Of a stretch of DNA of 64,000 bases, positions 35,435 to 49,900 are shown in pieces. Source of the DNA: Candidatus Nomurabacteria bacterium. Its GTDB lineage: Bacteria; Patescibacteriota; Minisyncoccia; Phycocordibacterales; UBA918. Location of the stretch: NCBI GenBank assembly GCA_023898525.1, contig CP060227.1, positions 1,021,932 to 1,085,931 of the forward strand, in the 5' to 3' direction. Below the pieces are notes generated by a model. The model saw only the letters and a program-made list of their open reading frames with translations. It was not told the DNA's origin and did no database searches. Position 1 is the stretch's first letter. Every line of letters starts with the position of its first letter. The position numbers and the translations under genes were made by a program.

Positions 35435-35521
35435 GGAGAGATGGCTGAGTGGCTGAAGGCGCACGCTTGGAAAGCGTGTATACGTGAAAGCGTATCGGGG
35501 GTTCGAATCCCCCTCTCTCCG
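35435..35521 (+). tRNA. tRNA-Ser (anticodon GGA), type II with long variable arm
   Basis: Acceptor stem GGAGAGA/TCTCTCC. Anticodon stem CACGC/GCGTG with loop TTGGAAA. Long variable arm. T-arm GGGGG-TTCGAAT-CCCCC. Discriminator G. CCA not encoded. Confidence 0.85.
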
Positions 35522-36355: not shown

Positions 36356-38467
36356 ATGGATGAGAAATTTTTAAAGCCGTACGACCATACTGGAGTCGAG
36401 GACAATATCTATAAAAAGTGGGAGGAGTCGGGATATTTTAATCCGGATAATTTACCTGGTACCCGTGAAGAAAAATACAGTATCATTATGCCGCCTCCAA
36501 ACGCCAACGGTCGTCTGCACGCCGGACACGGTACAGATATTACTCTGAAGGATATTTTGATCAGATATCAGCGTATGCAGGGCAAGAAGACTCTGCTTTT
36601 GCCCGGTTCTGACCACGCAGGCTTTGAAACGCAGGGTGTTTACGAAAAGAAACTGCAAAAGGAAGGTCGTTCACGCTTTGGGATGGAGCGAGACCAGCTC
36701 TACAAAGAGATTTACGACTTCGTGATGGAAAATAAGCACATTATGGAGGATGATGTGCGCAAGCTCGGGGCCTCTTGTGATTGGTCTAGAAATACGTTTA
36801 CTTTACAGCCTGATGTGGTTTCTAGGGTGCAGGATACATTCATAAAAATGTTTGAAGAAGGTCTTATCTATAGAGGTCTGCGTAGTATTCACTGGAATCC
36901 AAAGTTCCAGACTTCTTTGTCTGATATAGAGACAGATTTTGAGGAAAAGAAAGACTCTTTTTATTACTTCCAATATGGTCCGTTTGTGATTGGTACCGCG
37001 CGTCCGGAAACCAAGTTCGGTGACAAATATGTAGTAGTGCATCCTGACGACAAGCGTTATGCTGAGTATAAACATGGTCAAACCTTTGAAATAGAATGGA
37101 TAAATGGCCCGATGACCGCTACGCTTATCAAAGACGAAGCGGCAGACCCTGAGATGGGTTCGGGAGCCATGACTATCACTCCGTGGCATAGTGCGGTCGA
37201 CTTTGATATTGCCCAAAAACACAACTTAGAGGTAGAGCAAATAATTGATTGGAACGGCAAACTACTACCGATTGCTGAAGAATTTGCCGGCATGCGTATA
37301 GAAGAGGCGAGGCCAAAGATAGTAGAAAAGCTAAAAGAAAAAGGACTTTTGGTAAAAGTAGATGAGGACTATACTCACGCTGTACGTATCTGTGAACGAA
37401 CCGGAGTAGTGGTAGAGCCACAGATAAAAGAGCAGTGGTTTGTAAAGATGGAGCCGCTTACCAAAATGGCGCTAACCTCGCTGGATAAGGGAGAGTATAA
37501 GTTTATCACCGAACAACACGAGAAGATCTTTCGTCACTGGATGAATAATCCAATGGATTGGAATATTTCCAGGCAAATCGTGTGGGGGATCCGTATACCG
37601 GCGTGGTTTAAGGGTGAAGAGATAAAGGTGGCGAAAGAGTGTCCAGGCGAAGGTTGGGAGCAAGATCCTGATACTTTTGATACTTGGTTTTCATCTGGGC
37701 AATGGCCGCTTATGACACTCGGTTATCCGGGCGGCAAAGATATGGAGTATTATCCGACTTCGGTGATGGAAACGGGTGCCGACTTGGTGTTTAAATGGGT
37801 GCCACGTATGATCATGTTTGGTCTTTATTTGACCAAAGAGGTGCCGTTTAAAGACATTTACTTCCACGGTATGATGCTTGATGCAAAAGGTAAGAAGATG
37901 AGTAAATCCAAGGGTAATGTATTGTCGCCGATTGATTTGGCGGCTGAGTTTGGTACCGACGCTACTCGCATGTCGTTTGTGGTGGCTAATCCGCCAGGAG
38001 CCAATATGCCCCTATCTAAAGATAAGGTGCGCGCCTACAAGAAATTTGCCAATAAGCTTTGGAATATCAGTCGTTTTACTTTTGATAATATAGCCGGAGT
38101 CGATTTTAATGAGGAAAAGGAACTGCTAGCGGTCGACGAGGAGCTTATTGCTAATCTTAAAGACGCGGTCAACGGGGCGGCACAAAATATCGAAAAGTAT
38201 CGCCTAGACTTGGCAGCCGATGCATTGTACCACTATGCTTGGCATGATTTTGCTGATAAGATTCTAGAAGATTCAAAACCAATTCTAAATGGAGAGGATG
38301 AAGAGCAGAAGCTTTCCAGACAACATGCTCTGTATCAAATACACGCCAATATATTAAAAGCTCTACACCCATTTATGCCGTTTATTACCGAAGAGATCTG
38401 GCAATCAGTCCCGGCCGGCTACCTGAAAAAAAGTGAACTGTTGATGGTAGAATCGTGGCTTGAATAA
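36356..38467 (+). CDS. valS: class I aminoacyl-tRNA synthetase, valine--tRNA ligase-like (short form, 703 aa)
   Basis: HIGH-region PPPNANGRLHAGHG resembles ValRS PPPNVTGSLHMGH. DWNISRQ motif of Val/Ile/Leu-RS. KMSKS present. Lacks the long C-terminal coiled coil. Confidence 0.6.
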   Translation: MDEKFLKPYDHTGVEDNIYKKWEESGYFNPDNLPGTREEKYSIIMPPPNANGRLHAGHGTDITLKDILIRYQRMQGKKTLLLPGSDHAGFETQGVYEKKLQKEGRSRFGMERDQLYKEIYDFVMENKHIMEDDVRKLGASCDWSRNTFTLQPDVVSRVQDTFIKMFEEGLIYRGLRSIHWNPKFQTSLSDIETDFEEKKDSFYYFQYGPFVIGTARPETKFGDKYVVVHPDDKRYAEYKHGQTFEIEWINGPMTATLIKDEAADPEMGSGAMTITPWHSAVDFDIAQKHNLEVEQIIDWNGKLLPIAEEFAGMRIEEARPKIVEKLKEKGLLVKVDEDYTHAVRICERTGVVVEPQIKEQWFVKMEPLTKMALTSLDKGEYKFITEQHEKIFRHWMNNPMDWNISRQIVWGIRIPAWFKGEEIKVAKECPGEGWEQDPDTFDTWFSSGQWPLMTLGYPGGKDMEYYPTSVMETGADLVFKWVPRMIMFGLYLTKEVPFKDIYFHGMMLDAKGKKMSKSKGNVLSPIDLAAEFGTDATRMSFVVANPPGANMPLSKDKVRAYKKFANKLWNISRFTFDNIAGVDFNEEKELLAVDEELIANLKDAVNGAAQNIEKYRLDLAADALYHYAWHDFADKILEDSKPILNGEDEEQKLSRQHALYQIHANILKALHPFMPFITEEIWQSVPAGYLKKSELLMVESWLE

Positions 38468-40639: not shown

Positions 40640-41760
40640 CCGGCTTAACTATGAATAATCTCACATACATATGAGACTCCTTAAATAAGGAGTAATGAGA
40701 ATACATAACATTTTAAGGAACACCAGAGGGTTTGCCAAAGCGGCTGATAGTGCTCTAAAGTGGCAGACAATGAAAAACAAACAGGAGGTCGAAAGAAGAG
40801 TTAAAATACTCACGTTTTGGCAAAAACATGGTACTAATACCACCAAAGATGCTTTTGGCGTATCTAGACCAACTTTATTTAGATGGCAAAAAGAACTAAA
40901 TGATAGTAATGGTAATATCCAAGCCCTAGACCCCAAGAGTACTGCTCCTAAGAAACGAAGAGTGAGACAGATATCACCACCACTAGAGCAAGCTATTATC
41001 AACTGGCGTACTAAGCGACCACGGATTGGTGGGAAAAAGCTGGTACCGCTATTGAAGAAGGAAGGATTCAAGGTGTCAGTTTCCTATGTTAATCGCTGTA
41101 TCAGTGATCTTAAAGAACTAGGTAGACTACCGAATCCAGTTAAGCTCTCTTGGTACGCTAAGAGTGGTACACACAAAGAACAAAGAAAAACCAAGGTTAA
41201 AAAACAAAGAAGACCACAAAAACAAGGTTTGGAGATAGACACTATCGTGAGACACATAGATGGCACTAAACGGTACATACTCACCGCCATAGACATAGAA
41301 AGACGGTTTGCTTACGCTCGTACTTATACCAGTCATTCTTCAAATAGTGCTCGAGACTTTCTAAAACAACTTATACACTATACCCCTTTTAGTATAGATG
41401 AGATACAGACTGATAATGGTTCAGAATTCGCTAAATACTTCCACGAAGCTTGTTTAACTCTTAACATCAACCATTATCACACTTATCCACGTTGTCCTAA
41501 GATGAATGCCTATATAGAGCGATTCAATCGTACCGTTCAAGAAGAACACATTATTTATCACCGATCCCTGCTTCGAGATAGTATTCCTGACTTCAATGAT
41601 TCACTGAATGAATGGTTGTATTGGTATAACCATGAGAGACCGCATGAAGGACTGGGTCTTTTGTCGCCCATGGAGTATTATAGAGAACATTATGAGATAG
41701 AGTCTCAAAGGTGGTGAGATCGTACAAACTATTGACTGTACGCTTGAATTATGGCAGTGT
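40640..41760 (+). mobile_element. IS481-family insertion sequence (boundaries approximate, terminal IRs not resolved)
   Basis: Single transposase ORF with a strong SD. Flanking sequence lacks other genes. Ends not identified by eye. Confidence 0.5.
40695..41717 (+). CDS. DDE transposase, IS481 family (HTH + rve integrase core)
   Basis: N-terminal HTH region. DDE triad in AIDIERRF / IQTDNGSEF / YIERFNRTV. TAAGGAG RBS 5 nt upstream of the ATG. Confidence 0.8.
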   Translation: MRIHNILRNTRGFAKAADSALKWQTMKNKQEVERRVKILTFWQKHGTNTTKDAFGVSRPTLFRWQKELNDSNGNIQALDPKSTAPKKRRVRQISPPLEQAIINWRTKRPRIGGKKLVPLLKKEGFKVSVSYVNRCISDLKELGRLPNPVKLSWYAKSGTHKEQRKTKVKKQRRPQKQGLEIDTIVRHIDGTKRYILTAIDIERRFAYARTYTSHSSNSARDFLKQLIHYTPFSIDEIQTDNGSEFAKYFHEACLTLNINHYHTYPRCPKMNAYIERFNRTVQEEHIIYHRSLLRDSIPDFNDSLNEWLYWYNHERPHEGLGLLSPMEYYREHYEIESQRW

Positions 41761-43675: not shown

Positions 43676-43717
43676 AAAGGCCGGTTTTGCTCGCGCAAAA
43701 CCGGCCATCTTTTATTG
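43676..43717 (+). terminator. rho-independent terminator
   Basis: GGCCGGTTTTGC-tcgc-GCAAAACCGGCC followed by a T-rich tract. Confidence 0.55.
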
Positions 43718-44343: not shown

Positions 44344-45618
44344 ATGAAAAAAATTATTACAAGTTTGGGAATGATTGTCTTCGTAGGAGCGGTCGTTGTT
44401 GGAGGAACGGGGGCCTTCTTCAGCGACACCGAGACTTCAACCGGCAACGTGTTCACGGCTGGGGCTATTGATTTAAAGGTTGATAGTGTTGGTCATATCA
44501 ATGGCTTAGTTTGTCATGATGATACTGATGATGAGACAGATAACTCACGTTGGATTCCTGAAGATCAGGTGGTCTGGAACCCTGACACAGAGCAGAATGA
44601 ACTAGCGGGTGACGCTAATGTACCAGCTGCTATCGATGAGTACAACGAAGCCAATCCAGCCAATGTACCGCAAGCTGGCGAACCTTGTGGTAGTACTTGG
44701 GCTTTGACTGATTTGTTGGATGGAGTACACACTTTCTTCAACTTTGATGATATCAAGCCGGGCGACGAGGGTGAAAACACGATTTCACTACACATAGACA
44801 ACAACGATGCTTGGATGTGTGTTGATATTGATATCACCAAAAACGATGACGTGTCTTCAACCGAGCCAGAGCTTGAAGATGGTGATGTAGAAGAGGAGGG
44901 TACTGATGATTTTGATGGAGAATTGGCACAACACATGAACTTCTTTGCTTGGCTAGATGATGGGGACAATATTTGGCAAACAGATGAACTGCCACTGTTT
45001 ACAAACACTTCAGGTCCAGCAAGTGATGTGCTAGGTGGACGAACCTACGCTCTAGCCGACTCAACTACCGGTAACGGGCCGATTGCTGGTGGTGAAACAC
45101 ATTACATCGGTCTAGCTTGGTGTGCCGGTGAAATAGACGCTTTAACACCGGGAGTTATCCTTTGTGATGGCTCAACTATGGGTAACGAAGCCCAAACGGA
45201 CATGATGGAAGCTGATATTGCTTTCCGAGTGGAGCAGGCTCGAAATAACGGTGACTTTACTTGTGTGGGGCGAGATGTTCAGTTACCAGCTCCAGCATTG
45301 ACTATAGATAAAGAAGTTACATTTTCTAGTTCAACTATAGTTGGTGTGGAAGTTAGTGATTTTCAGTTAGTTATAACTGGACCTGATGCAGCAACAACCA
45401 CAACTATATTGAGTGACGAAGTCAAAGCTGAAGGATTGGCAGCTGGTGTCTATACTATCAGTGAGGTTTATTCTGGCGACCCATCTGGAGTGGTTTGGGA
45501 CGCTCAGTTTAGTGGAGCTTGTTCTGAAATAGGAGATTCTGATGATGGTACTATTACTTTAGCAAATGGGGATGATCTTCTTTGTAACATAACAAATGTA
45601 ATTTCACCAATTCAATAA
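44344..45618 (+). CDS. TasA/camelysin-like (peptidase M73-type) secreted protein, paralogue 1, with C-terminal Cna-B/prealbumin-like domain
   Basis: Signal peptide ending VGGTGAFFSDTETSTGNVFTAGAIDL, close to the B. subtilis TasA N-terminus and the SipW-cognate signal class. Core FNFDDIKPGDEGENTISLHIDNNDAWMCVDIDIT aligns with TasA NLKPGD...FENNGS. C-terminal GVYTISEVYSGDPSG motif. Confidence 0.75.
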   Translation: MKKIITSLGMIVFVGAVVVGGTGAFFSDTETSTGNVFTAGAIDLKVDSVGHINGLVCHDDTDDETDNSRWIPEDQVVWNPDTEQNELAGDANVPAAIDEYNEANPANVPQAGEPCGSTWALTDLLDGVHTFFNFDDIKPGDEGENTISLHIDNNDAWMCVDIDITKNDDVSSTEPELEDGDVEEEGTDDFDGELAQHMNFFAWLDDGDNIWQTDELPLFTNTSGPASDVLGGRTYALADSTTGNGPIAGGETHYIGLAWCAGEIDALTPGVILCDGSTMGNEAQTDMMEADIAFRVEQARNNGDFTCVGRDVQLPAPALTIDKEVTFSSSTIVGVEVSDFQLVITGPDAATTTTILSDEVKAEGLAAGVYTISEVYSGDPSGVVWDAQFSGACSEIGDSDDGTITLANGDDLLCNITNVISPIQ

Positions 45619-45735
45619 TAATACCTATTTAGCCGTTCCGAATTTCAGCTTTATGGCTGGAATTTGGCGGGCTGAAGGGGGAATCAGTGTGATTGAGGTT
45701 TAAAAACGTATTTATTCAGCCTTAAAAACTTAACT

Positions 45736-47121
45736 ATGCGACGAATATTCTTGAGTTTAGTGATGATTACAGTGGTTGGCGGGGCACTGACCTTCGGGGC
45801 AACTAAGGCCTTCTTCAACGATTCCGAAACTTCGGTAGCTAATGTATTAGCAGCCGGAGCGATTGATCTTTTGATCGACAACGAGAGCTACTATAACGGT
45901 CTTTTTAATGAAAATACCTCTTGGGAAAAGAAGGATTTGACCATTGAGAAATTCTTTGACTTTGATGATGTAAAGCCGGGGGATTATGGTGAGGATACTA
46001 TATCGGTACATGTCGAAAATAACGACTCATACATGTGTGCTGATGTGACTTTGACTTCCAATAACGAAAACGGGCAGACTGAGCCGGAAGCACTGGTAGA
46101 CCAAACTACCGGAGAAGATGAGGGTGAGTTAGCTGGTTTAGTCAATTTTATCTGGTGGGCTGACGATGGAGATAATGTACTGGAAGATGATGAGGAAGTT
46201 ATCTCCGGTCCGGGGCCAATCGGGGCTTTGCCACTAAATGAACCGTACTCAATCACACTGGCTGATGCCACGAAGAATATATGGAACGAGGATCAGCTAC
46301 CCGGTCCGGTAAATGGTGCCGAAACCTACTATATCGGCAAGGCTTGGTGTTTTGGTGAAATAGTACCTGATCCGCTTCCGCAAGACGGCGAAGCTGACGA
46401 CTGGTCTCCGGCCGATGACAATAACGGCAATCAGAAGTCAGGTGAGCCGTCTGATGGTGGTTTCCTTTGTAGCGGGGCTGAGCTCGGCAATGAAAGTCAG
46501 ACTGACTCGCTGACTGCTGATGTTGCCTTCAGTGCTGTGCAAGCTCGTCATAACCCCAACTTCATGTGTGAGCCAGTTGATCTGACTTGTGATCCGGAGC
46601 AATCATATGCAACTAAGGTAGTGGCCTTTTCACAAGGAGTTCGCAGAAACGGCACTCCGGTAGACCCGAGTCGCTCAAATCCAACTTTTGCTCTTGGAGC
46701 GCCACAGAGTGCTGGAACGTCGTTTGATAATCCAGTGGTTCCAAACAGCTTCTTTAGTCTAGGATTCAATCCAGACGCACAGCAGCTTGAAGGTGGTTGG
46801 ATCGTAGTTGAGTTTGAAGATGGATATATTGTGGATGGTCCAGGTAATGACCTTAGAGCTTGGGAAGTGACTGGTGGTAATAGTTATCCAGTCGAAAAGA
46901 TAAAGATTGAAGTGAGTCAAAACGGCTCAGATTGGCACTTGGTATCCGCTAGTTTAGATCGGGATGTAGAGGCAGACTTGGCTTCGTCTGGTTTAGCGTG
47001 GGCCAAGTATGTCAGAGTGACCGATGTATCACCACGCGCACCGTTTGAAGCAACTGCTGATGGTTATGATTTGGATGCTTTCAGTGCACTTAACTGTGCT
47101 ACGTTGCCACCAAATATATAA
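45736..47121 (+). CDS. TasA/camelysin-like secreted protein, paralogue 2, with extra C-terminal domain
   Basis: Signal peptide ending GATKAFFNDSETSVANVLAAGAIDL. Core FFDFDDVKPGDYGEDTISVHVENNDSYMCADVTLT. Conserved acidic block EPEALVD...GELAGLVNFIWWADDGDN. About 150 aa extra C-terminal region. Confidence 0.75.
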   Translation: MRRIFLSLVMITVVGGALTFGATKAFFNDSETSVANVLAAGAIDLLIDNESYYNGLFNENTSWEKKDLTIEKFFDFDDVKPGDYGEDTISVHVENNDSYMCADVTLTSNNENGQTEPEALVDQTTGEDEGELAGLVNFIWWADDGDNVLEDDEEVISGPGPIGALPLNEPYSITLADATKNIWNEDQLPGPVNGAETYYIGKAWCFGEIVPDPLPQDGEADDWSPADDNNGNQKSGEPSDGGFLCSGAELGNESQTDSLTADVAFSAVQARHNPNFMCEPVDLTCDPEQSYATKVVAFSQGVRRNGTPVDPSRSNPTFALGAPQSAGTSFDNPVVPNSFFSLGFNPDAQQLEGGWIVVEFEDGYIVDGPGNDLRAWEVTGGNSYPVEKIKIEVSQNGSDWHLVSASLDRDVEADLASSGLAWAKYVRVTDVSPRAPFEATADGYDLDAFSALNCATLPPNI

Positions 47122-47170: not shown

Positions 47171-48199
47171 ATGCCAAAAATATTCTACCAAAAAGGAGTT
47201 AAAATCACGCTTTTAGGTGGAATTTTGGTGTTTCTTGTGGTGATCTTGTCGGCTAGTGGTGTCAGTGCAGGCTATACCTTTGCGACCTATAACGATGGTT
47301 ATGATGGTAAACACAAAAAAAGTGGTCATGGTAAGGGTCTGGAACTCACGATTGACAGCCGCGCTGTCTACAATGGAGTTTTGCAACCTGCTTTGACTTG
47401 GGACTTAAAACACCTAGTACCGGGAGTGGATCACTTCTTTGATTTTGACGATGTGAAGCCGGGGGATATGGGCGAGCATACCATCAGTCTTCATGTGAAG
47501 AAAAGTGCCGCTTATGCCTGCTTGGATTTTCAGAACTTGGTAGATGATGAAAATGGCATGAACGAGCCGGAAGCGCTGGTAGACGATGAGGAGGGTGGAG
47601 AATTGTCGCAATATCTTGAGTTTTTTGGTTGGCGCGACGATGGTGATGGAGAGTTTGAGGTTGGAGAGAAGGTGTTGTTTGGTTTGGAGGATCAGGCGGC
47701 TAGTGTTTTGCTAAATGACACGACTTATCCAATCGAGGATACTTATACCGGTAAGAGCTGCAAGATGAACTCGGTTAATTATGTGGGCATAATCTGGTGT
47801 GCTGGAGACCTTATGGTAGACGTCGACACGGCCGAAGTTAGTTGTAGTGGAGAAGGGTTGGGCAATGTCATACAGACCGATTCTATGAGTGTGGACGTGC
47901 GCCTAAGAGCAGTTCAATCTAGCTACAACAACGGTTTTAGGTGTTCTGCAAAATCAAAGCCAAAGAAACCAAAGGGTAATAATGGTCACGGTAACGATGA
48001 GGATCATAATGATGACTCAAACCCCGGCAATTCTAATGACGAAGATGATCATACTGATGATGATGGAGTGCCTCCGGGTCAGGAAGAGGAGATTGAAAGT
48101 GAGCGTTTTACTCGAGTTAGTGATTTGCGTCGAGAATCGCCAAGCTTCCGCAATAATCTATGGAGTAATCTAGCCGTCTTAATGGGTCGAAATATGTAA
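47171..48199 (+). CDS. TasA/camelysin-like secreted protein, paralogue 3 (divergent N-terminus, His/Asp-rich tail)
   Basis: Strong GGGAGAGGGAGG RBS. Core FFDFDDVKPGDMGEHTISLHVKKSAAYACLD and acidic block EPEALVDDEEGGEL...FGWRDDGDGEF shared with paralogues 1-2. C-terminal HGNDEDHNDDSNPGNSNDEDDH tail. Confidence 0.65.
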   Translation: MPKIFYQKGVKITLLGGILVFLVVILSASGVSAGYTFATYNDGYDGKHKKSGHGKGLELTIDSRAVYNGVLQPALTWDLKHLVPGVDHFFDFDDVKPGDMGEHTISLHVKKSAAYACLDFQNLVDDENGMNEPEALVDDEEGGELSQYLEFFGWRDDGDGEFEVGEKVLFGLEDQAASVLLNDTTYPIEDTYTGKSCKMNSVNYVGIIWCAGDLMVDVDTAEVSCSGEGLGNVIQTDSMSVDVRLRAVQSSYNNGFRCSAKSKPKKPKGNNGHGNDEDHNDDSNPGNSNDEDDHTDDDGVPPGQEEEIESERFTRVSDLRRESPSFRNNLWSNLAVLMGRNM

Positions 48200-48200
48200 T

Positions 48201-49847
48201 ATGAAAGCTTTTTTCTCAACAATATTATATACACTGTTTGGTCTCATAGTAATTGGTTTGACGGTGTTGTTTGTGGCACCTGCTACTCCTCTACTCTCTG
48301 GTTTTGATGTGAAGATTGTAAAATCAGGTTCGATGGAACCGCAGATTATGACTGGAGCAGTAGTCGTAATAAAAGAGAGTGTACAGTACGGGGTTGGAGA
48401 CATTATTACCTTTAACAATACTGATACTGAGATTCCAACTACCCATCGTATTGTTGGTACCGAGAGTGTTGATGGAGTTAGTTATTTTGTCACCAAAGGG
48501 GATGCAAATGAAGAGCGGGACATGAGTCTGGTGGCGGTCGGTGATGTTATTGGTAAGGTGATGGTTAATGCGCCTTACGCCGGTTATGTACTTGACTTTG
48601 CAAGGCAACCGCTAGGTTTTGTGCTTTTGGTGGGGATACCAGCGCTTTTAATTGTCTTGGATGAATTGGTGAATATCTGGCAGGAGGTTAAAAGAATGCG
48701 CAGACCTAAAGTAGCTAGGAAAGTTACGACACCACTGGAAGTGGCTCCTTATAGTCCAAGGGGACTTGATAAAACGCGGCCGGCTAAGCTAATGGATATA
48801 ACTCCTATTGTAAGAAACGAACTGGGTGCTAGGGAGGAGGTAAAAGCAGCTACACAGCCTCGAATGTATCATGATATTAGACCAAAGATGTCCGCTTTGG
48901 TCACATCGGTGCTTGTGTTTGCGCTCGTGACTGGTTTTACTAGTCTGGAAGACATATCAACTCTGTCTTACCCGATGGATATTGAGGCCAGTTTGGATAA
49001 TTCTATGCAAGCTAAGCGGGTTGATTTTTCAGTGTCGCCCACTACTTCCGAGATAGATTTTTCTATTGAGAAGGTAACTAATATCGAGGTGATTGTTACG
49101 CCAGACGGGGTTTCGGCCACTGAATTGGTTTATGATGTGGCGGTGGAGAAGGTAAGTGGTGATTCTGCTTTTTGTGATGATGTACTCGTAGATGCAGAAT
49201 CGCCACTTATTTACGCCGATCAATTTAAAAATCTAGCCGATAGTGGAGTTTCTTTCATCGGTTCCTGGCCACTTAATTTTTCGATGGCAGGAGTACATAA
49301 TTCAGGAGAGACTTGTAGCTTCAATCTAGTGTTTAACGGATATTTGGCTGGCACTGATGGTATGACCGGCTATATTGATACGGAGATAGTGAGTCTGAAC
49401 TTTATAGCTGAAACCGCCTTGCCGCTTGTACCAAGTTCGAGTCCTCAAGCTACATTCACAGCTTTGCTACCGGTTGGTACTTCTACTCCACAACCCGGAG
49501 CGATGTCGGAAGAAGTCTCGGGAACATCTTCTACTGCTAAAGAGGCAAGTTCTACTGAAGAGATTATTGACTCTGAAATTACTGGTGAAGGAGAGGGAAG
49601 AGAAGAAAATAACGACAATGATCAAGGAATTGTGGTTGAGGAAAAGGTACAAGAACCACCTGTAGAGGATATAGAGGAGGTAAAGGATAATACTGGCCAA
49701 GAAGCAAAAGAGGAAGAGAATACACCGGAAGACGAAGAGGTTGTGAGAGAGGAGGCTCAAGATACAGAAAACGAGGCGGTAGAAGTTCCGCAAAAAGAAA
49801 CTGCTAGCGTGGTGGATGATGAGACTAGAGCAGGTGTTGGGCTTTAG
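48201..49847 (+). CDS. archaeal/ER-type signal peptidase I (SipW-like) fused to long C-terminal extracytoplasmic Glu-rich extension
   Basis: Starts 1 nt after the upstream stop. Catalytic boxes SGSMEP, GDIITF, THRIV (His), TKGDANEERD. Two TM helices around the catalytic domain. Third TM near residue 225. Acidic Glu-rich tail, 548 aa. Confidence 0.8.
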   Translation: MKAFFSTILYTLFGLIVIGLTVLFVAPATPLLSGFDVKIVKSGSMEPQIMTGAVVVIKESVQYGVGDIITFNNTDTEIPTTHRIVGTESVDGVSYFVTKGDANEERDMSLVAVGDVIGKVMVNAPYAGYVLDFARQPLGFVLLVGIPALLIVLDELVNIWQEVKRMRRPKVARKVTTPLEVAPYSPRGLDKTRPAKLMDITPIVRNELGAREEVKAATQPRMYHDIRPKMSALVTSVLVFALVTGFTSLEDISTLSYPMDIEASLDNSMQAKRVDFSVSPTTSEIDFSIEKVTNIEVIVTPDGVSATELVYDVAVEKVSGDSAFCDDVLVDAESPLIYADQFKNLADSGVSFIGSWPLNFSMAGVHNSGETCSFNLVFNGYLAGTDGMTGYIDTEIVSLNFIAETALPLVPSSSPQATFTALLPVGTSTPQPGAMSEEVSGTSSTAKEASSTEEIIDSEITGEGEGREENNDNDQGIVVEEKVQEPPVEDIEEVKDNTGQEAKEEENTPEDEEVVREEAQDTENEAVEVPQKETASVVDDETRAGVGL

Positions 49848-49866: not shown

Positions 49867-49900
49867 ACGTCCGTCATTTGAATGTGACGGACGTTTTTCT
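49867..49900 (+). terminator. rho-independent terminator ending the TasA-like/SipW-like operon
   Basis: ACGTCCGTCA-tttgaatg-TGACGGACGT followed by TTTTT. Confidence 0.65.

What the first reader, a model, noticed from the sequence alone, without database searches (positions are those of the whole stretch)
48201..49847. SipW-like signal peptidase fused to a roughly 370-aa extracytoplasmic and Glu-rich extension
Canonical SipW-type peptidases are about 170-190 aa. This ORF continues for about 370 further residues, with a third TM helix near residue 225, a Ser/Thr-rich predicted extracellular region and a highly acidic Glu-rich C-terminal tail. The ORF is uninterrupted, so this is a genuine fusion rather than two genes. 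The extension may substitute for the TapA anchoring/assembly function or tether the fibre. That is speculative.
Basis: partly seen in the sequence, partly recalled or inferred. Interest (0 to 1): 0.55.

Follow-up and report, generated by a model that had tools for sequence, protein, structure and literature searches.

The report
Signal peptidase fused to its substrate
In this ultra-small bacterium (Candidatus Nomurabacteria) the dedicated signal peptidase of a TasA-type surface-fibre operon is fused to the neighbouring gene, a TapA-like minor fibre protein that has its own internal signal peptide, so enzyme and likely substrate are made as one chain.

Summary
ORF 48201-49847 (+, 548 aa) is uninterrupted. 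Residues 1-175 are an archaeal/SipW-type signal peptidase I, followed by a third hydrophobic helix (229-250), a folded domain, a Ser/Thr-rich stretch and a Glu-rich tail.

The extension is not generic low complexity. Residues about 200-410 are a conserved module I call EXT, with 1047 clusters at E<=1e-10. In most Patescibacteria it is a separate gene directly downstream of a 170-200 aa sipW: 63 split versus 13-15 fused among 88 peptidase genes. It always closes an operon of 2-5 TasA/camelysin-like genes.

Helix 3 is an internal SipW-type signal peptide. It is followed by the same motif as the TasA-like subunits, T-x-[AS]|[YF][FY]-x-D-x-E-x-S-x-x-N-x-[FL]-x-A-x-x-L-D-[FL]. Next comes a confidently predicted Ig-like beta-sandwich with two invariant cysteines.

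This matches the layout of B. subtilis TapA: SipW-cleaved signal peptide, free N-terminal donor strand, complete Ig domain with a disulfide, disordered tail. Homology of the Ig domain to TapA was not detectable.

Best reading: a real, recurrent fusion of SipW with a TapA-like fibre initiator or anchor, probably cleaved at S256|Y257. Cleavage and function are inferred. New variant of a known kind, of moderate interest.

The parts
44344..45618 (+). TasA/camelysin-like fibre subunit paralogue 1 (424 aa). It has a SipW-dependent-type signal peptide and the canonical N-terminal motif GGTGA|FFSDTETSTGNVFTAGAIDL, plus a C-terminal prealbumin-like (SpaA_2-like) domain.
   Evidence: PF12389 24.7 bits and TIGR04088 26.7 bits, both above cutoff; SpaA_2 weak; motif table.
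45736..47121 (+). TasA/camelysin-like fibre subunit paralogue 2 (461 aa), with the canonical motif GATKA|FFNDSETSVANVLAAGAIDL.
   Evidence: PF12389 22.9 bits; alignment A3.
47171..48199 (+). Divergent TasA-like paralogue 3 (342 aa). It has a long signal-anchor-like N-terminus, a degenerate N-terminal motif, and a His/Asp/Asn-rich tail.
   Evidence: Aligns with paralogues 1-2 over the jelly-roll core. The TASA HMM hits it but the EXT-motif HMM does not. The same holds in 18 of the related loci (among them L001, L002 and L007-L013) for the gene immediately upstream of sipW.
48201..49847 (+). Fused gene: SipW-type signal peptidase I plus the EXT (TapA-like) module, 548 aa plus stop.
48201..48725 (+). 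Peptidase module, residues 1-175: TM1 (7-29), extracytoplasmic catalytic domain, TM2 (137-160). The presumed catalytic residues are Ser44 (SGSMEP), His82 (PTTHRI) and Asp101/Asp107 (GDANEExD).
   Evidence: TIGR02228 98.1 bits against cutoff 51.85. H82, D101 and D107 are invariant and S44 is at least 90% conserved in 36 sequences. AF2 pLDDT is about 75-94. Hydropathy.
48681..48884 (+). Cytoplasmic linker, residues 161-228, net positive (16 K+R against 8 D+E) and predicted disordered. It contains a conserved (R)MMDI-like motif (KLMDI, 197-201). It corresponds to the end of sipW plus the N-terminal cytoplasmic region of the separate EXT gene in split genomes.
48885..48950 (+). Third hydrophobic helix, residues 229-250. 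This is the h-region of an internal SipW-dependent-type signal peptide.
   Evidence: AF2 helix 227-247; Kyte-Doolittle peak 231-249. The homologous segments of P0041 and P0119 pass TIGR04088 (23.5 and 19.4 bits, cutoff 19). In split genomes the same segment is an ordinary 29-33-aa N-terminal signal peptide (L043, L074, L047).
48951..49022 (+). c-region, predicted cleavage site T254-L-S256|Y257, and the donor-strand-like motif YPMDIEASLDNSMQAKRVDF.
   Evidence: Y257, D260, E262 and N267 are at least 90% conserved. The motif is in register with the TasA-like subunits and with the TapA A43|A44 site. It is unstructured with lower confidence in both AF2 models (pLDDT <50 in the full-length model, about 58-78 in the extension-only model), i.e. 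not packed on the domain.
49023..49430 (+). EXT globular domain, residues 275-410: an Ig-like beta-sandwich with invariant Cys325 and Cys372.
   Evidence: AF2 pLDDT 85-98. C325 and C372 are invariant. There are 1047 representative clusters at E<=1e-10. The only Foldseek matches are weak Ig-like ones.
49431..49844 (+). Disordered tail: Ser/Thr/Pro-rich 411-460 and Glu/Asp-rich 461-548. It is not conserved in sequence. In relatives it is replaced by Pro/Thr-rich tails or by LTD and Ig-like modules.
49867..49894 (+). Terminator-like hairpin 20 nt after the stop codon, marking the end of the four-gene operon. A matching hairpin at 43679-43706 lies upstream of the operon.

Best explanation
The gene is a natural fusion of two adjacent genes of a Patescibacterial TasA-type fibre operon. 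One is the dedicated SipW-type signal peptidase. The other is the gene that normally follows it, called EXT here, which encodes a TapA-like minor fibre protein. Proposed mechanism: TM1 and TM2 place the Ser-His peptidase domain on the outer face of the membrane, where it removes the SipW-type signal peptides of the three upstream TasA-like subunits (inferred from family knowledge). The positively charged linker stays in the cytoplasm. Helix 3 acts as an internal signal peptide that exports the rest of the chain (topology inferred from hydropathy and charge). Just after helix 3 lies a canonical SipW site, T254-x-S256|Y257, followed by the same strand motif that TasA, BsaA and TapA use as an N-terminal donor strand. 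The Ig-like domain that follows folds on its own without that strand. So, like TapA, the module can donate a strand to the first TasA-like subunit but probably cannot accept one. That would make it a fibre initiator or cap at the groove end of the fibre. I consider it more likely than not (about 55%) that the peptidase cuts its own chain, in cis or in trans, at S256|Y257. That would release the TapA-like protein in 1:1 stoichiometry with the enzyme. If it is not cut, the same strand would tether the fibre base to the membrane through the peptidase. The acidic tail is a variable, disordered spacer or surface module. Shown: the domain architecture, conservation, synteny, split and fused states, and motif register. 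Inferred: cleavage, strand donation, and a role in fibre initiation or anchoring.
For: Peptidase identity and catalytic residues. Conserved extension: homologues typically cover about 67-80% of the query, ending near residue 405-410. The A2 profile finds 2047 clusters at E<=1e-3 and 1047 at E<=1e-10. Synteny of 2-5 TasA-like genes, then sipW, then EXT holds in essentially all loci. Of 88 peptidase genes, 63 are split, 13 fused and 2 fused with the motif only. Fused forms sit at three or more positions of the peptidase tree. Split pairs typically overlap by 4-50 nt. The short sipW genes end exactly after TM2 and the basic stretch. On the signal-peptide nature of helix 3, TIGR04088 is passed by homologous segments. 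The EXT HMM hits the first ~50 residues of nearly all canonical TasA-like proteins at 22-42 bits. hhalign of EXT against the window's TasA-like proteins gives probability 83.8% and E 7.8e-6, starting in the signal peptide. In the position-by-position motif table, T(-3) is 55/60, [AS](-1) 56/60, D 57/60, E 58/60 and N 58/60. Some stand-alone EXT proteins have ordinary 29-33-aa signal peptides. Structure: the Ig-like domain has pLDDT 85-98, and the motif segment is unstructured. For the TapA parallel, PMC10151520 reports a signal peptide 1-43 cut by SipW, an essential unstructured N-terminus 44-57 that complements TasA, a complete Ig fold with a C92-C188 disulfide, a dispensable C-terminus, abundance as low as SipW, and a tapA/sipW stop-start overlap. 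The only hhalign stretch between EXT and TapA puts T-x-S|Y on T41-S-A43|A44. The TapA sequence was verified against PDB 6QAY. PMC11580942 models donor-strand exchange at the membrane before SipW cleavage for C. perfringens BsaA.
Against: There is no direct evidence of cleavage or of strand donation. The window's own motif is divergent: Pro at P2' (YPMD), and no TIGR04088 hit for this copy alone. The Ig domain has no detectable homology to TapA or TasA. hhalign gives probability 1%. The best Foldseek hits are only E~3e-4 with TM 0.35-0.46, to chaperone-usher chaperones and pilins. The resemblance to TapA is therefore architectural and could be convergent. Many stand-alone EXT proteins have long (60-85 aa), partly conserved cytoplasmic N-termini, which is unusual for a cleaved signal peptide and may point to a retained membrane anchor. 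Many EXT proteins carry LTD and Ig-like modules, which could mean an adhesin role independent of fibre initiation.
Confidence: 0.6

Rival explanations
1. Uncleaved anchor. Helix 3 is a permanent third transmembrane helix. The EXT domain stays covalently attached to the peptidase and tethers the base of the TasA-like fibre, or simply decorates the cell surface, so the protein is a combined processing and anchoring platform.
For: Long, partly conserved cytoplasmic N-terminal regions of 60-85 aa occur in many stand-alone EXT proteins, and the conserved MMDI-like motif in the fused linker suggests the N-terminal part has a function of its own. The window copy has Pro at P2'. BsaA oligomers are membrane-anchored in C. 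perfringens (PMC11580942). TapA is described as an anchoring protein that colocalises with the membrane (PMC10151520).
Against: The -3/-1 small-residue pattern (T 55/60, A/S 56/60) is conserved as strictly as in the TasA-like substrates. Some family members have plain 29-33-aa signal peptides typical of cleaved proteins. TapA, which also has a long 43-aa signal peptide, is cleaved.
Confidence: 0.25
2. Just another SipW substrate. EXT is a surface protein or adhesin that uses the SipW-type signal only for export and processing. It has no role in fibre initiation. The fusion merely reflects translational coupling of neighbouring genes.
For: The C-terminal parts are hypervariable and often carry LTD and bacterial surface Ig-like domains. 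There is no detectable homology to TapA. A 4-nt overlap makes accidental fusion easy.
Against: The conserved motif extends more than 20 residues past the cleavage site and matches the donor strand of the fibre subunits position by position, including the strand-forming hydrophobic pattern. EXT is found as the last gene of TasA-like operons in almost every locus examined. The Ig domain leaves that strand free in the models.
Confidence: 0.2
3. Periplasmic-chaperone-like function. The Ig-like domain holds unassembled TasA-like subunits at the membrane, in the manner of PapD/FimC/Caf1M, rather than being part of the fibre.
For: The top Foldseek hits are chaperone-usher chaperones FaeE, Caf1M, FimC and PapD. 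Roske et al. describe TapA as a chaperone analogue.
Against: The matches are weak (TM 0.35-0.46, rmsd 5-8 A, 8-14% identity) and mix chaperones with pilins and unrelated Ig-like proteins. Chaperone-usher chaperones have two Ig domains, whereas EXT has one.
Confidence: 0.08
4. Artefact. A sequencing or assembly frameshift has joined sipW and the downstream gene in this MAG.
For: Most relatives have two genes, typically overlapping by 4-50 nt, so a single-base error could fuse them.
Against: The fused frame is found in 13 loci (the window included) from different assemblies, including complete genomes (CP064968.1), with 33-47% identity and a conserved in-frame linker. The homologue P0004 is on 24 or more contigs. 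The identical protein is on 2 contigs.
Confidence: 0.02

Closest known systems
Bacillus subtilis tapA-sipW-tasA operon: SipW (archaeal/ER-type signal peptidase I) with TapA and TasA
   Same: A dedicated Ser-His-type signal peptidase is encoded with TasA/camelysin-family subunits that carry the SipW-cognate signal peptide. A minor protein shares the TapA layout: SipW-type signal peptide, free N-terminal F-x-D-x-E strand, a self-sufficient Ig-like domain with a Cys pair, and a disordered acidic tail. The peptidase and minor-protein genes are adjacent and overlapping.
   Different: Here the gene order is tasA-like x3, then sipW, then the TapA-like gene, and the last two are fused into one polypeptide with an internal signal peptide. 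The Ig domain shows no detectable sequence or fold homology to TapA. The peptidase scores below the Bacillus SipW equivalog cutoff (110.7 against 190). The host is a Patescibacterium with three fibre paralogues.
Clostridium perfringens sipW-bsaA-bsaB-bsaC (BsaA donor-strand exchange with isopeptide lock; PMC11580942)
   Same: A SipW-dependent TasA-family fibre with an N-terminal donor strand containing a key Asn followed two residues later by a hydrophobic residue. The published model has assembly taking place at the membrane next to SipW.
   Different: There is no peptidase fusion. The accessory protein is a vWA protein. The N-E-K isopeptide triad has not been tested for the Patescibacterial proteins.
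Split sipW + EXT gene pairs of other Patescibacteria (annotated 'hypothetical protein' or 'LTD domain-containing protein', e.g. OHA18799.1)
   Same: The two modules are homologous, occupy the same operon position, and share the motif and the Ig-like domain.
   Different: They are two separate polypeptides. EXT then has an N-terminal rather than internal signal peptide and often extra LTD or Ig-like modules in place of the acidic tail.
Chaperone-usher pilus chaperones and pilins (FaeE, Caf1M, FimC, CsuA/B, PsaA)
   Same: Ig-like beta-sandwich fold, and the logic of donor-strand complementation. These are the best, though weak, structural matches.
   Different: They belong to a diderm outer-membrane usher pathway. 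TM-scores are only about 0.35-0.46 and identity about 10%. This is an analogy, not membership.

Membership tests
Archaeal/ER-type (SipW-type, S26B) signal peptidase I | Match to the family model above its curated cutoff | tested here: met
   TIGR02228 scores 98.1 bits against cutoff 51.85, over residues 7-156.
Archaeal/ER-type (SipW-type, S26B) signal peptidase I | Catalytic Ser and His (not Ser-Lys) plus conserved Asp residues | tested here: met
   S44 in SGSMEP is at least 90% conserved. H82 in PTTHRI and D101/D107 in GDANEExD are invariant in 36 sequences.
Archaeal/ER-type (SipW-type, S26B) signal peptidase I | Catalytic domain flanked by an N-terminal and a C-terminal transmembrane helix | tested here: met
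   Hydropathy peaks at 8-26 and 139-157; AF2 helices 2-28 and 137-167.
Archaeal/ER-type (SipW-type, S26B) signal peptidase I | Proteolytic activity on cognate signal peptides | not testable with these tools
   Needs biochemistry.
Bacillus SipW equivalog (NF046067) | Score above the equivalog cutoff | tested here: not met
   110.7 bits against cutoff 190. It is SipW-like but not an equivalog of Bacillus SipW.
Bacillus SipW equivalog (NF046067) | Encoded with TasA/camelysin-family substrates that carry TIGR04088 signal peptides | tested here: met
   Three upstream TasA-like genes. PF12389 is above cutoff for paralogues 1 and 2 and TIGR04088 for paralogue 1; paralogue 3 is assigned by alignment only. 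The same synteny holds in related loci.
SipW-dependent-type signal peptide class (TIGR04088), applied to residues ~229-275 | Match to TIGR04088 above cutoff | tested here: inconclusive
   The window's own segment gives no hit at E<=1. The homologous segments of P0041 (23.5 bits) and P0119 (19.4 bits) pass cutoff 19, and a third scores 12 bits.
SipW-dependent-type signal peptide class (TIGR04088), applied to residues ~229-275 | Hydrophobic core, then T/small at -3 and A/S at -1, then aromatic-aromatic-x-D-x-E-x-S-x-x-N | tested here: met
   The family table is in register with 120 TasA-like proteins. The window has T254-L-S256|Y257-P-M-D-I-E-A-S-L-D-N.
SipW-dependent-type signal peptide class (TIGR04088), applied to residues ~229-275 | Actual cleavage by SipW | not testable with these tools
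   Inferred only.
TapA (TasA anchoring/assembly protein) | Sequence or fold homology of the central Ig domain to TapA (PDB 6HQC/6QAY) | tested here: not met
   hhalign probability 1%, E 0.049, with only 27 columns aligned, all in the signal peptide and motif. No TapA entry appears in the top 50 Foldseek PDB hits. No PDB sequence hit.
TapA (TasA anchoring/assembly protein) | Architecture: SipW-type signal peptide, unstructured N-terminal strand, complete Ig fold with a Cys pair, disordered C-terminus | tested here: met
   compared with PMC10151520. Disulfide formation itself is inferred.
TapA (TasA anchoring/assembly protein) | N-terminal strand complements TasA and nucleates filaments | not tested
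   Would need multimer modelling or experiments.
TasA/camelysin (PF12389) jelly-roll subunit, applied to the extension | PF12389 match over the globular domain, or a TasA-like fold | tested here: not met
   Only the first ~40 residues (signal peptide plus motif) give weak PF12389 hits in homologues (E 0.017-0.16), and none in the window copy. No TasA appears among the Foldseek hits.
Chaperone-usher chaperone or pilin | Significant structural superposition and two-domain chaperone architecture or pilin groove | tested here: not met
   Best E 3e-4, TM 0.35-0.46, rmsd 5-8 A, and a single domain.

The most novel reading that the evidence does not exclude
The fused protein is a self-processing 'enzyme plus first substrate' polyprotein that also serves as the assembly platform. 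The peptidase cuts its own internal signal peptide in cis and releases a TapA-like primer exactly where TasA-like subunits emerge. The invariant Asn of the shared strand motif (N267 here) may then lock covalently onto a Lys of the first subunit, as in BsaA. This would be a minimal, usher-free, membrane-coupled donor-strand assembly machine in ultra-small episymbiotic bacteria.
Probability: 0.15. Interest if true: 0.75.

Novelty: new variant of a known kind. Interest (0 to 1): 0.55.

Why it matters
TasA-type fibres are now known to assemble by donor-strand exchange. How assembly is started, anchored and coupled to SipW is still debated for B. subtilis TapA and C. perfringens BsaA. A recurrent natural fusion of SipW with a TapA-like protein works as a Rosetta-stone argument that the peptidase and the fibre initiator or anchor act together at the membrane in 1:1 amounts. 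It also defines a large uncharacterised protein family (EXT), with more than 1000 clusters at 50% identity. These are currently annotated 'hypothetical' or 'LTD domain-containing', or are hidden inside 'signal peptidase I'. EXT is the conserved third component of TasA-like operons in Patescibacteria, organisms whose surface appendages are thought to mediate attachment to hosts but are almost unstudied. An internal signal peptide placed downstream of the peptidase that probably cleaves it is also an unusual topology, and it is directly testable.

Tried and rejected
- Pfam and NCBIfam scans of the extension alone gave nothing for the window copy. Homologues gave only the short TIGR04088/PF12389 N-terminal hits.
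- A PDB sequence search with the EXT profile gave only insignificant CopC hits, E>=0.097.
- Foldseek against PDB, with both the full-length and the extension-only models, gave only weak generic Ig-like matches and no TasA, TapA or AbpA. I therefore rejected 'the extension is a TasA jelly-roll' and 'the extension is a TapA homologue' as membership claims.
- hhalign of EXT against TapA was not significant.
- The search for related loci with the EXT alignment failed for lack of a conserved stretch, so the full-length alignment was used instead.
- Literature searches for camelysin, TasA-like or SipW together with CPR/Patescibacteria, or with gene fusion, found no description of this fusion or of the EXT family. 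The library is limited to open-access papers.
- The frameshift-artefact reading was considered and rejected.
- The reading of the extension as generic low complexity was considered and rejected. Only residues 411-548 are low complexity and unconserved.
Full report
**1. The observation**

The window region 48201-49847 (+) is one uninterrupted ORF of 548 aa. Its ATG lies 2 nt after the stop of the upstream gene.

Residues 7-156 match the archaeal-type signal peptidase I model TIGR02228, at 98.1 bits against a cutoff of 51.85. Residues 6-171 match the Bacillus SipW model NF046067 at 110.7 bits, which is below its equivalog cutoff of 190. Pfam S24/S26 hits are only weak. The family models are 158-189 positions long, so about 373 residues are extra.

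Hydropathy gives three peaks, at 8-26, 139-157 and 231-249. The linker 161-228 has 16 K+R against 8 D+E. Residues 411-460 are 36% Ser+Thr. Residues 461-548 are 36% Asp+Glu, with 27% Glu.

The identical protein is USN87799.1, 'signal peptidase I', from a Candidatus Nomurabacteria MAG. The window is thus from a Patescibacterium (CPR).

**2. The extension is conserved and structured**

A homology search returned 254 proteins, and most of the 120 best listed are 440-640 aa. They typically cover about 67-80% of the query, that is up to about residue 405-410, at 30-47% identity.

An alignment of 36 of them (A1) shows an invariant peptidase core: H82, D101, D107, with S44 at least 90% conserved. After the third helix there is a strongly conserved motif, G-[ST]-T-x-S-Y-x-x-D-x-E-x-S-x-x-N-x-L-x-A-x-x-L-D-F. 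In the window, Y257, D260, E262 and N267 are at least 90% conserved. There are also two invariant cysteines, C325 and C372. The Ser/Thr-rich and acidic tail is unalignable and variable.

AlphaFold2 with this alignment gives the following:
- a confident peptidase domain;
- TM2 as helix 137-167;
- a disordered linker 187-226;
- helix 227-247;
- a low-confidence, unstructured segment 248-269 (the motif);
- a beta-sandwich at 270-410, with pLDDT 85-97;
- a disordered tail from 413 onward.

A second model of residues 228-415 alone gave mean pLDDT 86 and pTM 0.70, with the same picture.

**3. What the third helix and the motif are**

The three upstream ORFs (44344-45618, 45736-47121, 47171-48199) are TasA/camelysin-like. 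PF12389 is above cutoff for the first two. TIGR04088, 'SipW-dependent-type signal peptide', is above cutoff for the first.

Their N-termini read GGTGA-FFSDTETSTGNVFTAGAIDL and GATKA-FFNDSETSVANVLAAGAIDL. This is the same motif, in the same register, as the segment after helix 3 of the fused protein. The evidence is as follows:
- TIGR04088 is passed by the homologous segments of P0041 (23.5 bits) and P0119 (19.4 bits) against cutoff 19. The window's own, more divergent copy gives no hit.
- A profile of the extension against a profile of the three TasA-like proteins gives hhalign probability 83.8% and E 7.8e-6. The alignment starts in the hydrophobic region.
- An HMM of the extension hits the first ~50 residues of nearly every canonical TasA-like protein in 80+ loci, at 22-42 bits.
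- In a position table, the extension family has T at -3 (55/60), A/S at -1 (56/60), Y/F at +1 and F/Y at +2. It then has D (57/60), E (58/60), S (49/60) and N (58/60). The TasA-like proteins have T-G-A|F-F-S-D-T-E-T-S-T-G-N.

B. subtilis TasA is cut by SipW with Phe at P2' (PMC10269814 abstract). TapA is cut at A43|A44 (PMC10151520). The only stretch that hhalign aligns between the extension profile and TapA puts T-x-S|Y on T41-S-A43|A44. That alignment is statistically insignificant, with probability 1%.

Its predicted cleavage site is S256|Y257.

**4. The extension is a separate gene in most relatives**

A profile search with the extension alone (A2) against 1.84 billion representatives found 2047 clusters at E<=1e-3 and 1047 at E<=1e-10. 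Besides the fused proteins there are many stand-alone proteins of 235-400 aa with the domain at about residues 45-225. There are also longer ones of 540-600 aa.

Their contexts show a 181-192-aa gene immediately upstream and overlapping. That gene translates to a complete SipW-type peptidase ending just after TM2 and the basic stretch.

I then collected 80 loci from GTDB species genomes with the peptidase motifs. All ORFs were scanned with HMMs for the peptidase, the extension (EXT) and the TasA-like proteins. Of 88 peptidase genes:
- 63 are split, with sipW of 168-294 aa (mostly 170-200) followed by an adjacent EXT gene. The commonest arrangement is a 4-nt overlap.
- 13 are fused.
- 2 are fused but retain only the motif.
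- 10 have no EXT nearby, several of them at contig ends or in the most distant lineages.

The loci are the closest relatives of the query, so the fused share is if anything over-estimated.

In a neighbour-joining tree of the peptidase domain the fused genes fall in three or more places:
- a main clade comprising the window, L001 (a complete Kaiserbacteria genome, CP064968.1), L002 and L007-L012;
- a second region of the tree holding L013 and L016 (sisters) and L021 (sister to the split L018);
- L003/L019, and L014.

This suggests recurrent fusion of overlapping genes.

In nearly all loci the order is 2-5 TasA-like genes, then sipW, then EXT. In the window, terminator-like hairpins at 43679-43706 and 49867-49894 bracket the four-gene operon.

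Stand-alone EXT proteins have either ordinary 29-33-aa signal peptides (L043, L074, L047) or long 60-85-aa N-terminal regions. The long forms often carry a lamin-tail domain, with or without a bacterial surface Ig-like domain, after EXT. Public annotations are 'hypothetical protein' or 'LTD domain-containing protein'. The fused ones are called 'signal peptidase I'.

**5. What the globular domain resembles**

Foldseek against the PDB gave only weak hits, with best E 3e-4, TM 0.35-0.46, rmsd 5-8 A and 8-14% identity. This held for both the full-length and the extension-only models.

The hits are dominated by chaperone-usher chaperones (FaeE, Caf1M, FimC, PapD) and pilins (CsuA/B, PsaA, CfaE/CfaB). 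No TasA, TapA or archaeal AbpA appears in the top 50. A sequence profile search of the PDB found nothing significant, and Pfam found nothing.

So the domain is a single Ig-like beta-sandwich of a family that has no model in Pfam-A or NCBIfam.

**6. Mechanism proposed**

According to PMC10151520, TapA has these features:
- a SipW-cleaved signal peptide (1-43);
- an unstructured N-terminus whose residues 44-57 are essential and complement TasA by strand donation;
- a complete, stable Ig fold (71-190) with a C92-C188 disulfide that cannot accept a strand;
- a dispensable C-terminus.

TapA is as scarce as SipW, and the tapA stop codon overlaps the sipW start.

The EXT module has the same layout: a SipW-type signal peptide, a free conserved strand, a self-sufficient Ig-like domain with an invariant Cys pair, and a disordered tail. 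It sits next to sipW, overlapping it or fused to it.

I therefore propose three things:
- The peptidase module processes the three TasA-like subunits.
- Helix 3 exports the EXT module.
- The strand 257-275 complements the acceptor groove of a TasA-like subunit, making EXT an initiator or cap, or the membrane anchor, at the groove end of the fibre.

The strict conservation of the -3/-1 residues, and the existence of family members with plain short signal peptides, make cleavage at S256|Y257 somewhat more likely than not. The fused protein would then be a self-processing polyprotein that delivers enzyme and primer 1:1.

The C. perfringens BsaA work describes donor-strand exchange at the membrane before SipW cleavage (PMC11580942). 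That makes a physical coupling of peptidase and fibre base plausible.

Shown: architecture, conservation, synteny, split/fused distribution and motif register. Inferred: topology, cleavage, strand donation and role.

**7. Rivals**

- An uncleaved anchor. The long conserved cytoplasmic N-regions and Pro at P2' in the window's subclade speak for it.
- A mere SipW substrate or adhesin with no role in assembly. The variable LTD/Ig modules speak for it. The 20-residue strand motif and the strict operon linkage speak against it.
- A chaperone-like role, supported only by weak fold matches.
- An assembly artefact, effectively excluded by 13 independent fused loci (counting the window), the more than 100 fused homologues, and the conserved in-frame linker.

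**8. Comparison and novelty**

The system is a member of the SipW/TasA kind. The peptidase passes the archaeal-type signal peptidase I tests but not the Bacillus SipW equivalog cutoff. The extension works like TapA but fails the homology test, so it should not be filed as TapA.

I found no paper describing the fusion or the EXT family. The ABP paper notes only that TasA homologues occur in Patescibacteria (PMC9245690).

I rate it a new variant of a known kind, with moderate interest of 0.55. It gives a Rosetta-stone argument for SipW-TapA coupling, an unusual internal signal peptide downstream of its own peptidase, and a large uncharacterised family in CPR surface-fibre operons.

Noticed in passing
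window 47171-48199 (+): The third TasA-like paralogue lacks the canonical N-terminal D-x-E-x-S-x-x-N strand motif. It reads GYTFATYNDGYDGKHKKSGHGKGLELTIDS, has a long signal-anchor-like N-terminus and ends in a His/Asp/Asn-rich tail. A paralogue of this kind sits immediately upstream of sipW in 18 of the related loci, including L001, L002 and L007-L013. It could be a subunit that accepts but cannot donate a strand, that is the opposite fibre end cap.
   Followed up: partly
window 44344-47121 and related loci: The Asn of the strand motif is invariant in 120/120 TasA-like proteins and 58/60 EXT proteins, and is followed two residues later by Phe or Leu. This is the same spacing as N35 and F37 of C. 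perfringens BsaA, where N35 forms an intermolecular isopeptide bond with K74. The TasA-like proteins also have an invariant FDFDDVKPGDxGE block containing Lys and Glu. An isopeptide lock was not tested.
   Followed up: no
L025, L031, L038, L051, L053, L063, L070, L073 (EXT genes); P0147, P0155, P0162: In many split genomes the EXT protein continues into a lamin-tail domain (PF00932), and sometimes a bacterial surface Ig-like domain (PF16403), reaching up to 1440 aa. One fused protein (P0115, 723 aa) also carries an LTD.
   Followed up: partly
window 44344-45618 and 45736-47121: The two canonical TasA-like paralogues carry different C-terminal add-ons. One is a prealbumin-like SpaA_2-type domain (E 6.5e-4). 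The other is a weak F5/8 type C-like region (E 5.7e-3). This suggests functionally differentiated fibre subunits.
   Followed up: no
window 40695-41717 (+): This is a 340-aa ORF that looks by eye like an IS481/IS3-type DDE integrase (rve-like C-terminal half). It lies about 2.6 kb upstream of the fibre operon. GC content rises to 0.42-0.47 across the operon, against 0.36-0.38 in the flanks.
   Followed up: no
L001 42-1953: In the Kaiserbacteria genome a SpaA-like protein and a sortase gene lie directly upstream of the TasA-like operon. Two different fibre systems are therefore adjacent there.
   Followed up: no
L004 7942-9525 (-): Genes with N_methyl (type IV pilin-like prepilin) motifs lie immediately downstream of the split sipW-EXT pair. 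This recalls the reported dependence of BsaA secretion on type IV pilus proteins in C. perfringens.
   Followed up: no
L073 14248-14769: There is a second SipW-type peptidase gene, without an adjacent EXT gene, in the same locus as a split sipW-EXT pair.
   Followed up: no
window 35435-35521 (+); 36356-38467 (+): A single tRNA gene was found by Rfam. A 703-aa ORF looks by eye like a class I aminoacyl-tRNA synthetase (KMSKS motif). These are ordinary housekeeping context.
   Followed up: no
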